This document shows, in pieces, positions 12,754 to 14,687 of a stretch of 64,000 bases of DNA; position 1 is the stretch's first letter, and every line of letters begins with the position of its first letter. The notes beneath the pieces were generated by a model. That model was given only the letters and a program-made list of their open reading frames with translations, was not told where the DNA came from and searched no databases. Source of the stretch: Chrysomallon squamiferum. Lineage: Eukaryota; Animalia; Mollusca. Made by a program: the position numbers and the translations under genes. The stretch spans positions 40,114,001 through 40,178,000 of the forward strand of contig CM022665.1 in the NCBI GenBank assembly GCA_012295275.1. Reading direction: 5' to 3'.

Positions 12754-14687
12754 TTAGAAACCAATTTCGAGATCGCTTTCCGACAATACAACGTCAAGAG
12801 CGTTTGCATTGTATTCCCAATTATCTCCTACCAATGTCTCAACAGATTCCTCAGATTCAGTATCGTCATCCTCCTCATCGTGGACTTTCCTGCCTGGCCA
12901 GGAGGGCAACGTACGCCAACAGCTATCTAGTTTCTGTGCGACCTCCTCCACTGCAGAATAAAAAGATTAATGCAGTGTATATCACACCTTTTCAAATTAA
13001 CGTGCAATAAACTGATTACTTTCTGAAGATATCAGATTTACCATGTGAAGGATAGCATGCCGAATGTAGCGAGGGTTTGCCGAGCTGTATTCGCCAGATA
13101 AATCTGATATCTTAACACAGTAACCAGTTATCTCTTTTATCCTGCAATCTTAAATGATACCAAAACTAGACGAAACTGACCGTTTCATTTATTAACTCGC
13201 CGCTTTTAAAATGAAATACCATTTGTAAAGATGTAAAGGCATCAGTTAAAAACTAATGAAGTAACCTTTAAGAATATATAAACTTAAATAACAAGTAATT
13301 TATCGAAATAAATGTAGGTCCGTCCCAAAAATCCCAGTGCCCGAAGATACAAAAATTAATTTTATCATCATATCTTGTCACCATTTATAGTGATTGCTGG
13401 ATAAAATTGTTTATATCTACGGAATTTATTTATTTATTAATGAAAATAACACTGAATAATAAATAGCGCCAAGTTCTAAAGATGTCGCTTAAGAGGAAAT
13501 AAAAATTTGAGTATATAATTGCTTATATAAATAAATAAAAATAAACAACTAAAGTTAAGTCGACTTTTGTTACAGAAATAATAAAATTAACTGTTTTATG
13601 ACAAATATTAAAGAGAACACATTTAATGCATCAGTTTTTATTTTATATATATAAATAATATGAATAGTAGAAAATAGAAAATATCGATATTTACGGTGAG
13701 CAGCAATGAAGAGACCGACAAGTGCCAAGACGATCCAGGCGAAATTTTTATAGGCTGAGAAAAAAAAAAATAAAAAAAAATTAAATAAAAATGTAATTAA
13801 ATAAATAAATAATAAAGTAAAATAAATAAATAAATAAAGTGAAATAAAGTTTTAAATAGTATTAGAAATAAGTGTCTGTGTGTGTGTGTGTGTGTGTGTG
13901 TGTGTGAGAGAGAGAGAGAGAGAGAGAGAGAGAGAGAGAGAGAGAGAGAGAGAGAGAGAGAGAGAGAGAGAGAGAGAGAGAGAGAGAGTACATATGTATA
14001 TTTGTGCGTGAATTTTCTACCAGCAAATATTTGGAAGGTATTCACATTATACATATAATGTGTTGGTAAACATACTTCAGACGTGTTCTCTGTTTCCTAT
14101 GAAAGATAATTAATATTAATATTACCTGCAATGATGGAGACTGGCACCACCTCTTCTCTTGCTTGCAATAACAAATTTAGTAGCCTGAAATAAACATTTA
14201 TTATTATAGTTATAAATGTACTACATATTTGTTTTGTCACACGTTTTTGTGTTTGATGTTGCAAACAGATATTGTTGTCAAAGTTTATAACACATGTATA
14301 CATAATTTGCTTATTCGTTTTACCTCCAAGTACATTTTATAATATTAAATAAGAGTATGTTATTAAAATATTAAAACTGTTTATCATTGACTGATTATTC
14401 CCACGCCATAAGAAATTAAAAGAATTAAAGTAAAAAATTTAAATCATCAATTAAGATATATTCAAATATAATAATTAAATCAAAAGCTAGAAAAAAAATC
14501 TAAAACAATAATCGATACTGCAACTTGTACTTACTTTTTATAATATAAAAATTAATATAAAAAGAAGATTTTAAAAGTAAGATAAATAATAACAATAAAT
14601 ATGCGTGTAAACTTACAAAGCTGAAAAACTTAAACCCATGACAACTCGAAGAAATCGGAGCAGATCACTCTCATACCAGTTTGCCAT
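12754..14687 (-). CDS. Novel 128-aa protein with two hydrophobic segments and acidic tail, paralog 1 (4 exons)
   Basis: Exons 14687-14617, 14184-14126, 13754-13695, 12950-12754; all GT-AG, phases 2/1/1 compatible; Kozak aacaaagATGG. Protein: MANWYESDLLRFLRVVMGLSFSALLLNLLLQAREEVVPVSIIAAYKNFAWIVLALVGLFIAAHLEEVAQKLDSCWRTLPSWPGRKVHDEEDDDTESEESVETLVGDNWEYNANALDVVLSESDLEIGF. Frame is preserved in three diverged copies. Confidence 0.88.
13010..13130. repeat. Imperfect palindromic (hairpin) element in the last intron
   Basis: Arms aactgattac/gtaaccagtt and agatatcagattta/taaatctgatatct flank a cgagggtttgccgag core. Also at ~43820-43940 and ~53365-53485. Confidence 0.75.

What the first reader, a model, noticed from the sequence alone, without database searches (positions are those of the whole stretch)
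12754..14687. Inverted conservation: exons hyper-diverged, introns nearly identical
Hand counts for paralog 1 vs 2: exon 2 has 7/59 differences, all amino-acid changing; exon 3 has 18/60; exon 4 has about 57/197; exon 1 barely aligns. A 180-nt intron sample (13141-13320 vs copy 3) has only 3 substitutions and 1 indel. Divergence switches on and off at the splice sites, which is how exon 3 was found. Exon 4 also has about a dozen synonymous codon changes, so positive selection alone does not explain it. Inference: old paralogs whose introns are homogenised by gene conversion while selection rejects converted exons, or exon replacement from a cDNA or another donor. Accelerated exon evolution is known from snake-venom PLA2 and conotoxin genes.
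Basis: partly seen in the sequence, partly recalled or inferred. Interest (0 to 1): 0.85.

Follow-up and report, generated by a model that had tools for sequence, protein, structure and literature searches.

The report
Diverged exons inside near-identical introns
Three neighbouring copies of a small membrane-protein gene in a snail-like genome are about 97% identical in introns and flanks, yet one copy differs by about 30% in its coding exons, likely because the copies keep overwriting each other's non-coding DNA while selection keeps two old protein types apart: a known pattern, here unusually sharp.

Summary
Three direct-repeat blocks each carry a 4-exon, minus-strand gene for a 128-129 aa protein with two hydrophobic segments and an acidic tail.

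Copy 1 versus copies 2 and 3:
- Coding sequence differs at 114/387 and 117/387 sites.
- Introns differ at 48/1535 and 53/1519 sites (Fisher p ~1e-48).
- Copies 2 and 3 differ by about 3% everywhere.

Identity drops only at the four coding exons. RNA contigs show copy 1 spliced as predicted, and DNA contigs from two studies carry its exons, so an artefact is unlikely.

Silent sites are also diverged: 12/36 conserved codons in exon 4, 3/10 in exon 3, but 0/13 in exon 2. Overall dS is ~0.7 and dN/dS ~0.4, so positive selection alone fails.

The best reading is old protein types kept apart while sequence exchange homogenises non-coding DNA. The expected conversion footprints are missing, however:
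- There is no divergence gradient at intron edges.
- There is no mosaic of site patterns.
- Non-coding divergence is uniform.

This is a new member of a known kind (L/M opsins, conotoxin genes), and the mechanism is not settled.

The parts
14617..14687 (-). Copy 1 exon 1, coding part (ATG at 14687); first hydrophobic segment
   Evidence: 32/71 differences from copy 2, while the 240 nt upstream differ at 9/235.
14185..14616 (-). Copy 1 intron 1 (GT..AG)
   Evidence: 14/431 vs copy 2, 14/427 vs copy 3.
14126..14184 (-). Copy 1 exon 2
   Evidence: 7/59; all differences in residue-changing codons, 0/13 silent; the loose end of RNA contigs beyond exon 3 reads copy-1-type exon 2.
13755..14125 (-). 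Copy 1 intron 2, with a (CT)n(CA)n microsatellite
   Evidence: 13/360 vs copy 2, 15/348 vs copy 3.
13695..13754 (-). Copy 1 exon 3; second hydrophobic segment
   Evidence: 18/60. RNA joint 12950->13695 in runs X8 and X9.
12951..13694 (-). Copy 1 intron 3
   Evidence: 21/744 vs copy 2, 24/744 vs copy 3; removed in RNA contigs (ends CT..AC on +, i.e. GT..AG on -).
12754..12950 (-). Copy 1 exon 4 coding part (stop TAA 12754-12756); acidic tail
   Evidence: 57/197; 12/36 silent codon differences; 19 D+E in 64 residues.
12450..12753 (-). Probable 3'UTR of copy 1, with intermediate copy-1-specific divergence
   Evidence: copy-1-only differences 18/250 here vs 28/~1500 in introns (p=2e-5), falling to baseline beyond; an RNA contig covers 12731-12890.
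43564..45527 (-). Copy 2 gene (exons 45454-45527, 44961-45019, 44522-44581, 43564-43760)
53109..55046 (-). Copy 3 gene (exons 54973-55046, 54486-54544, 54067-54126, 53109-53305)
   Evidence: Differs from copy 2 by 12/390 coding and 82/2497 non-coding sites.
9652..15452 (.). Copy 1 high-identity block (core of the repeat)
   Evidence: 96-97% to copy 3 over most of its length, tapering to 80-90% at 15229-15443.
16332..17246 (.). Older colinear homology outside the core (to 57416-58171 beside copy 3)
   Evidence: segments at 74-78% identity, with short 89-91% patches.

Best explanation
Copy 1's coding sequence is likely an old, separately maintained protein type. The near-identity of introns, UTR-proximal DNA and flanks among the three copies likely comes from repeated copying between the copies (interlocus gene conversion) that stops at the diverged coding exons.

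Shown directly:
- Three intact copies exist.
- Divergence is confined to the coding exons, with a weaker tail in the probable 3'UTR.
- Silent-site divergence in exons 3-4 is about ten times intron divergence.
- The codon-position pattern is that of purifying selection.
- Copy 1 is spliced as predicted.

Inferred:
- The loci are old duplicates.
- Exchange has kept ~5.8 kb around each gene uniform at ~3%.
- Exchanges that would carry a foreign coding segment are removed by selection on the protein or, more likely given the razor-sharp edges, are cut short where homology ends. In that case the 70%-identical exons act as a barrier and tracts run up to them.
- Exon 2 (no silent differences, six residue changes) was probably homogenised with its introns and then changed by selection.

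The protein's function is unknown. It is predicted to be a small membrane protein with two hydrophobic segments and an acidic, serine-rich tail.
For: 1. Old coding divergence.
- dS is 0.68-0.72, dN 0.24-0.30, dN/dS 0.35-0.43.
- Differences by codon position are 22/21/39.
- Same-residue codons differ at 12/36 in exon 4 and 3/10 in exon 3, against 3.1-3.5% in introns.
- Both proteins keep the same architecture.
2. No standing exon-specific acceleration.
- Copies 2 and 3 differ by 12/390 coding vs 43/1538 intron sites (p=0.73).
- Among contigs of four runs laid on copy 1, variable sites are 6 in 197 nt of exon 4 and 16 in 744 nt of intron 3.
3. The loci look older than the core.
- Colinear homology at 74-78% lies outside the 96-97% block beside copies 1 and 3, and between the flanks of copies 2 and 3.
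- Identity tapers 96 -> 93 -> 80-90% towards the block edge.
4. Block extents disagree with the coding tree. Copies 1 and 3 share both outer ends that copy 2 lacks, yet the coding sequence groups 2 with 3.
5. All three non-coding pairs are equally distant (0.041, 0.042, 0.033), as expected if all copies exchange.
6. Short templated-looking changes occur in this family.
- Copy 3 has a cluster of 4 changes within 12 nt.
- Some contigs match copy 1 for 67 nt of exon 4 and then switch to a different in-frame ending.
7. Literature.
- The same contrast in gibbon L/M opsins is attributed to intronic conversion plus purifying selection (PMC3213168, abstract).
- The 'peak of divergence' idea is described in PMC3924837 (passages).
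- Conversion falls sharply at ~80% identity (PMC3924818, passages).
Against: 1. No gradient at intron edges.
- Copy 1 vs 2 differences in introns, by distance from the coding edge: 1/60 (1-10 nt), 2/80 (11-25), 4/142 (26-50), 6/278 (51-100), 35/975 (beyond).
- In my simple two-copy model, tracts that reach the exon are removed by selection. It fits only mean tracts of ~10 nt or less: log-likelihood -216 (L=5), -218 (L=10), -235 (L=50), -253 (L=100), against -213.6 for a flat rate.
- Published means are 50 to several hundred bp (PMC3924818, passages).
2. No mosaic of site patterns in non-coding DNA. Adjacent identical patterns: 49 observed vs 47.0 expected, p=0.38; introns alone p=0.55.
3. Non-coding divergence is uniform.
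- Homogeneity across four partitions gives p=0.84, 0.82 and 0.21.
- The CV of 12 values is 0.23. This was never reached in 20,000 simulations with independent exponential ages and is typical of a single age.
- Window dispersion equals that of the control pair (1.74, 1.88 vs 1.69).
- This looks like one event, or like very many tiny exchanges.
4. Keeping four separate exons while five non-coding segments are homogenised needs many events.
5. Exon 2's pattern (Nd 6.5, Sd 0.5) is not 'old divergence'.
6. The outer 74-78% homology could be an unrelated repeat. I could not test its copy number.
Confidence: 0.45

Rival explanations
1. Young triplication (about 3-4% ago) followed by a lineage-specific burst of change confined to the exons of one lineage. 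This would be an exon-targeted or transcript-defined mutational process filtered by ordinary purifying selection, as long suspected for conotoxin and snake-toxin genes.
For: - Non-coding DNA behaves as if it has one age.
- All six intron edges are razor-sharp.
- Copy-1-specific divergence leaks into the probable 3'UTR (18/250 vs 28/~1500 in introns, p=2e-5; control lineages p=0.68). The diverged domain therefore follows the mature transcript rather than the DNA neighbourhood.
- Silent rates are exon-specific (0/13 vs 12/36), as with the Dn and Ds differences between conotoxin exons whose introns are 98-99% identical between paralogs (PMC3862624, passages).
- High dS with dN/dS below 1 is what a raised mutation rate plus normal selection gives.
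- The nearest named relative of a neighbouring gene is a gastropod.
Against: - Copies 2 and 3 show no exon excess (p=0.73).
- Variation among contigs of the copy-1 type shows no clear exon excess (6/197 vs 16/744).
- The 5' side shows no leak (2 copy-1-specific sites in 60 nt).
- The substitution spectrum has no bias (Ts/Tv 1.0, symmetric).
- No mechanism is known that spares introns.
- The older outer homology goes unexplained.
Confidence: 0.15
2. Young duplicates in which the coding segments of one copy were overwritten from a diverged donor. The donor could be a spliced cDNA or retrocopy, or an unlinked old paralog. Segment-wise exchange is also possible, as in 'accelerated segment switch in exons' (ASSET).
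For: - The imported sequence would carry old silent differences and a purifying-selection codon pattern.
- An intronless donor would give edges exactly at the splice sites.
- Divergence differs between exons (45%, 12%, 30%, 29%), as separate events would give.
- Contigs exist that switch type inside exon 4.
- ASSET is described for three-finger toxin genes with conserved introns (PMC2474615, abstract).
Against: - cDNA-mediated conversion is expected to remove introns (established knowledge, recalled). All three introns are retained.
- It needs at least four separate tracts.
- Donor and recipient exons would be only ~55-88% identical over 59-197 nt, where conversion is strongly suppressed (PMC3924818, passages).
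- There is no donor in the window.
- If the donor has family-type introns, the puzzle is only moved to the donor.
Confidence: 0.13
3. Two anciently balanced alleles of one gene were later captured as neighbouring paralogs by duplication. Their introns had been homogenised by ordinary allelic recombination in a very large population.
For: - Fine-scale allelic recombination over a long time gives sharp edges, a flat and uniform non-coding baseline and no visible tracts.
- The ~3% baseline is in the range of heterozygosity commonly reported for marine molluscs (recalled, not from a call).
- Further exon-4 variants exist in reads.
Against: - Copies 1 and 3 sit beside older colinear flanks, which suggests old loci rather than a recent capture.
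- Three separate loci with unique genes between them lie on one assembled stretch.
- There are no population data here.
Confidence: 0.12
4. Assembly or polishing artefact: copy 1 is a chimera of real diverged exons and wrongly assigned introns.
For: - The window has an N gap at about 9451-9651, next to the start of the copy 1 block.
- Short-read contigs break at the exon edges, so long-range linkage is not shown independently.
Against: - RNA contigs of two runs join copy-1-type exon 4 to exon 3 exactly at the predicted sites and continue into copy-1-type exon 2.
- DNA contigs of two studies carry copy-1 exon 4 and exon 3 with 0-1 differences and run 25-28 nt into the shared introns. They stop where 31-letter words become shared.
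- One contig of an RNA run spans 30 nt of exon 4 plus 60 nt of intron 3 without a difference.
Confidence: 0.03

Closest known systems
Primate L/M (red/green) opsin tandem genes; 'peak of divergence' between duplicates under interlocus gene conversion (PMC3213168 abstract; PMC3924837 passages)
   Same: - Exon divergence between paralogs significantly exceeds intron divergence.
- Synonymous sites in exons are older than introns.
- The explanation is homogenisation of introns plus selection keeping exon differences.
   Different: - Here all four coding exons are islands, and the contrast is far larger (~30% vs ~3%).
- There is no gradient into the introns and no detectable tracts or mosaic.
- Non-coding divergence is uniform.
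- Orthologue comparisons, which make the opsin case, are not available here.
Conotoxin gene superfamilies of cone snails (PMC3862624, passages)
   Same: - Gastropod multigene family.
- Introns are up to 98-99% identical between paralogs of one species while coding exons differ strongly.
- Dn and Ds both differ from exon to exon.
   Different: - The protein is not a secreted cysteine-rich peptide. It has two hydrophobic segments and an acidic tail.
- dN/dS is 0.35-0.43 overall.
- The first exon is the most diverged here, whereas it is the most conserved in conotoxins.
- One pair of copies shows no exon excess.
Snake-venom PLA2 and three-finger toxin genes: 'accelerated evolution' and ASSET (PMC2474615 abstract; PLA2 papers recalled, not read here)
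   Same: - Introns and UTRs are conserved and protein-coding parts diverged.
- Segments inside exons are exchanged for unlike ones.
   Different: - No sign of a toxin.
- dN/dS is below 1 except in exon 2.
- Only three copies were seen.
Islands of divergence in converting paralogs of invertebrates, e.g. GOT1 in the copepod Tigriopus (PMC3728101, search listing and start of abstract only)
   Same: Paralogs are homogenised by conversion, with persistent islands taken as targets of selection.
   Different: I did not read beyond the start of the abstract, so details cannot be compared.

Membership tests
Divergence islands between paralogs under interlocus gene conversion (opsin / RHD-RHCE type) | Exon divergence between paralogs significantly above intron divergence | tested here: met
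   114/387 vs 48/1535, p=1.7e-48. 117/387 vs 53/1519, p=7.7e-48.
Divergence islands between paralogs under interlocus gene conversion (opsin / RHD-RHCE type) | Synonymous divergence in the islands above intron divergence | tested here: met
   Exon 4: 12/36. Exon 3: 3/10 same-residue codons differ. dS is 0.68 vs ~0.03 in introns. Not met in exon 2 (0/13).
Divergence islands between paralogs under interlocus gene conversion (opsin / RHD-RHCE type) | Detectable conversion tracts or mosaic genealogies in the homogenised parts (GENECONV-type signal) | tested here: not met
   The permutation test of adjacent site patterns gives p=0.38 (introns 0.55). Window dispersion equals that of the control pair. 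Only three sequences were available and GENECONV itself was not run.
Divergence islands between paralogs under interlocus gene conversion (opsin / RHD-RHCE type) | Divergence declines gradually away from the selected sites (a peak) | tested here: not met
   The profile is flat at six intron edges. A decline is seen only downstream of the stop codon.
Divergence islands between paralogs under interlocus gene conversion (opsin / RHD-RHCE type) | Exon trees group by gene type across species while intron trees group by species | not testable with these tools
   No genome of this or a sister species is held. No relatives were found.
Accelerated evolution of toxin-type multigene families (conotoxins, snake PLA2/3FTx) | Introns and flanks conserved, coding parts hyperdiverged | tested here: met
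Accelerated evolution of toxin-type multigene families (conotoxins, snake PLA2/3FTx) | dN/dS at or above 1 in the diverged part | tested here: not met
   0.35-0.43 overall. Only exon 2 has Nd 6.5 vs Sd 0.5.
Accelerated evolution of toxin-type multigene families (conotoxins, snake PLA2/3FTx) | Secreted, cysteine-framework peptide | tested here: not met
   The translations show no cysteine framework. They show two hydrophobic segments and an acidic tail. There is no Pfam family.
cDNA-mediated gene conversion | Introns lost across the converted stretch | tested here: not met
   All three introns are present at the same positions in all copies.

The most novel reading that the evidence does not exclude
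The diverged domain is defined on the spliced transcript. It is sharp at all six intron edges, leaks into the 3'UTR and leaves no conversion footprint in non-coding DNA of a single apparent age. On this reading an exon-delimited diversification process, of the kind long suspected but never shown for conotoxin genes, has acted on an ordinary non-venom membrane-protein gene of a gastropod.
Probability: 0.12. Interest if true: 0.85.

Novelty: new member of a known kind. Interest (0 to 1): 0.42.

Why it matters
Paralogs whose exons are far more diverged than their introns are known from opsins, RH genes, venom genes and conotoxins. This scan has noted several more cases. The present one is compact: 2-kb genes in three copies. 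It is also extreme, with 30% against 3% at all four exons.

Simple checks can be made on it, and they show that the textbook account (ordinary conversion tracts plus rejection of converted exons) does not fit as it stands. The edges are too sharp and the non-coding divergence too uniform.

If tracts are cut short by the diverged exons themselves, divergence islands would be self-maintaining once formed. That matters for how duplicated genes escape concerted evolution. If instead the change is exon-targeted, it bears on the open question of how gastropod toxin genes diversify.

The gene family itself has no detectable relatives and no known function.

Tried and rejected
Relatives of the protein:
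- Only the exon-4 tail could be submitted.
- Pfam gave nothing above cut-off.
- Two word-index searches among longer proteins found none. The tool itself calls this weak evidence.
- A metagenome DNA pattern found 0 matches.
- A metagenome protein-pattern scan found 293 pattern matches, none confirmed.
- ESM Atlas gave only unnamed clusters.
- PDB sequences gave 0.
- Earlier findings by sequence gave none.
- The exhaustive HMMER search never ran: the queue was full at all 6 tries.

Intron-hosted RNA genes as a reason for intron conservation: Rfam gave 0 matches in 9600-15600.

Whole genome: not held, so there was no search for further family members or an intronless donor outside the window.

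A fifth divergence island at 11375-11455 is an indel breakpoint.

Mutational bias of AID/APOBEC or DGR type: the spectrum is symmetric and Ts/Tv is 1.0.

Reads:
- Contig depths suggest about 3 copies in one run: shared intron pieces ~57-69 vs copy-1 exon pieces ~22-23 in X1. The tool warns that such depths are a poor measure, so I draw no conclusion from them.
- A copy-2-type loose end in RNA run X8 is too short to show expression of copies 2 and 3.

Folding or docking the full proteins was not possible, because spliced sequences are not accepted.
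Full report
WHAT IS THERE

The window is AT-rich eukaryotic DNA (about 30% G+C) with GT..AG introns and many microsatellites. No whole genome is held for it. Neighbouring genes are ordinary. Exons of a GH38 alpha-mannosidase lie at 29959-35417 on the minus strand. A TFIIE-alpha C-terminal exon lies at 59529-59789 on the minus strand. The only named match of that exon is a Gigantopelta aegis protein, 78% identical over 52% of the query. 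The genome is therefore probably that of a gastropod-like mollusc, and I did not try to go further.

A self-comparison finds three direct-repeat blocks: copy 1 at 9652-15452, copy 2 at about 41022-45761, and copy 3 at 48817-55854. Each carries a minus-strand gene of four exons. All three have intact reading frames of 128, 129 and 129 residues.

All three proteins have hydrophobic segments at about residues 10-32 and 46-67. Each has a C-terminal tail of 64-65 residues with 17-19 Asp+Glu. tblastn finds no further copy in the window.

CHECK OF THE OBSERVATION

- exon 1: 32/71
- exon 2: 7/59
- exon 3: 18/60
- exon 4 coding part: 57/197
- introns: 14/431, 13/360, 21/744
- 5' flank: 9/235

Coding against intron differences give p=1.7e-48 (copy 1 vs 2) and 7.7e-48 (copy 1 vs 3). 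Copies 2 and 3 differ by 12/390 coding and 43/1538 intron sites (p=0.73).

In 100-column windows across the whole blocks, copy 1's identity to the others falls to 0.66-0.79 only at the four coding exons. A further dip at 11375-11455 is an indel breakpoint.

IS COPY 1 REAL?

Only exon 4, intron 3 and exon 3 could be laid against reads.
- RNA contigs of two runs from one study join 12950 to 13695 with ends CT..AC, which is GT..AG on the minus strand. They continue beyond exon 3 into letters that match copy-1-type exon 2.
- DNA contigs of two studies carry copy-1 exon 4 and exon 3 with 0-1 differences and run 25-28 nt into the introns. They end where 31-letter words become shared with the other copies.
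- One contig of an RNA run spans 30 nt of exon 4 and 60 nt of intron 3 without a difference.

Copy 1's coding sequence therefore exists, is expressed, is spliced as predicted, and abuts family-type intron ends. Long-range linkage across whole introns rests on the assembly alone.

The same output shows contigs that match copy 1 for 67 nt of exon 4 and then continue with a different ending. By my hand translation one such ending is in frame and homologous. Another carries a stop at the conserved tryptophan. More family members or alleles therefore exist.

WHAT KIND OF DIVERGENCE?

It is not the pattern of positive selection alone.
- Over exons 2-4, dS is 0.68, dN is 0.24-0.27 and dN/dS is 0.35-0.40. 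The whole coding sequence gives 0.38-0.43.
- Differences by codon position are 22, 21 and 39.
- Among degenerate codons that encode the same residue in copies 1 and 2, 12 of 36 differ in exon 4 and 3 of 10 in exon 3, but 0 of 13 in exon 2.
- Exon 2's seven differences all sit in residue-changing codons.
- The substitution spectrum is symmetric (Ts/Tv 1.0).

Exons 1, 3 and 4 thus look like an old coding sequence that evolved under purifying selection. Exon 2 looks recently homogenised and then changed at the protein level.

THE NON-CODING DNA

All three pairs are about equally distant: 0.041, 0.042 and 0.033. Sites where one copy is the odd one out number 62 (copy 1), 34 (copy 2) and 39 (copy 3) in non-coding DNA. 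In coding DNA they number 108, 3 and 6.

Outside the 96-97% core, copies 1 and 3 remain colinear at 74-78% identity: 16332-17246 against 57416-58171. A flank of copy 2 matches the continuation beside copy 3 at 74.7%. Identity tapers towards the core's upstream edge. Copies 1 and 3 share both outer ends that copy 2 lacks, although the coding sequence groups copy 2 with copy 3.

These features suggest old loci with a homogenised core.

TESTS OF THE CONVERSION ACCOUNT

If ordinary tracts homogenise introns and selection removes those that reach an exon, three things should follow:
- Divergence should rise towards the exon edges.
- Different segments should have different ages.
- Site patterns should cluster.

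None of these is seen.
- Intron differences (copy 1 vs 2) by distance from the coding edge are 1/60, 2/80, 4/142, 6/278 and 35/975.
- My simple model fits only mean tracts of about 10 nt or less. Log-likelihood is -216 and -218 for 5 and 10 nt, -235 for 50 nt and -253 for 100 nt, against -213.6 for a flat rate. Published means are 50 to several hundred bp (PMC3924818, passages).
- Divergence is homogeneous over four non-coding partitions (p=0.84, 0.82, 0.21). The CV of the 12 values is 0.23. That is typical of a single age and was never reached in 20,000 simulations with independent ages.
- Adjacent site patterns are no more alike than chance (p=0.38).

On the 3' side there is a decline. Copy-1-specific differences are 6 in the first 40 aligned sites after the stop codon and 18 in 250 sites over the first 300 columns. 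Beyond that they are at baseline. Introns have 28 in about 1500 sites (p=2e-5), and the other two lineages show no such contrast (p=0.68).

READING

I commit to old protein types plus exchange of non-coding DNA between copies, with one amendment that is inference. Tracts are probably cut short where homology ends, rather than made and then rejected. That gives flat introns and sharp edges with ordinary tract lengths. It agrees with the sharp fall of conversion at about 80% identity (PMC3924818, passages).

This amendment does not explain the uniform age of the non-coding DNA. That needs either very many small exchanges or one block-wide event. I therefore hold this reading at 0.45.

The rivals each explain the flat, uniform non-coding DNA better and something else worse:
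- An exon-delimited burst fails on copies 2 and 3, which show no exon excess.
- Import from a diverged donor fails on the retained introns and the poor homology.
- Old balanced alleles captured as paralogs fail on the old flanks.
- An artefact is unlikely.

COMPARISON AND NOVELTY

The pattern is known.
- Gibbon and human L/M opsins: PMC3213168 (abstract) and PMC3924837 (passages).
- Conotoxin genes, with introns up to 98-99% identical between paralogs and Dn and Ds that rise from exon to exon: PMC3862624 (passages).
- Three-finger toxin genes: PMC2474615 (abstract).
- Earlier notes of this scan list several similar cases in other genomes. I treat these as leads that lower novelty, not as evidence.

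What is particular here:
- the size of the contrast
- the involvement of every coding exon
- dN/dS below 1
- a non-toxin membrane protein with no detectable relatives
- the measured absence of the expected conversion footprints

VERDICT

This is a new member of a known kind, of moderate interest.

Noticed in passing
window 12824-12950 (reads laid): Contigs in DNA run X1 and RNA runs X8 and X9 match copy 1 over the first two thirds of exon 4. They then continue with different endings. By hand translation, one is in frame and homologous and one has a stop at the conserved tryptophan. Further family members or deeply different alleles exist, with switch points inside the exon.
   Followed up: partly
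window 53197-53207 (copy 3, exon 4): Copy 3 alone has four substitutions within 12 nt. They change the same two positions in two adjacent 9-nt repeats (E->S and V->S). This looks like a multi-nucleotide or templated change.
   Followed up: partly
window 13107-13330 (inside intron 3 of copy 1): Summed contig depth here is several times that of the rest of the intron in both DNA runs. This suggests a short dispersed repeat inside the intron.
   Followed up: no
window ~9451-9651: A run of N (assembly gap) lies directly before the start of the copy 1 block.
   Followed up: no
window 29959-35417 (-) and 59529-59789 (-): Exons of a GH38 alpha-mannosidase and the C-terminal exon of TFIIE-alpha lie between and beside the copies. 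The only named match of the latter is a Gigantopelta aegis protein at 78% identity.
   Followed up: partly
window 10344-10721, 41041-41490, 50314-50748 (-): An open frame ending in the same ~60-residue stretch recurs in all three blocks downstream of the gene. The copy at 10347-10721 has no Pfam match; the other two were not scanned. It may be a repeat or a remnant.
   Followed up: no
window 19171-19590 (+); 36858-37241 (-): A weak mariner-type transposase remnant (PF01359, E=7e-4, below cut-off). Also an open frame that looked like a reverse transcriptase by eye but has no Pfam support.
   Followed up: no
window 32243-33252; 15656-16078; 46609-47582 vs 47700-48667; 26067-26732: Tandem or direct repeat arrays at 78-96% identity. 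They are unrelated to the gene family.
   Followed up: no
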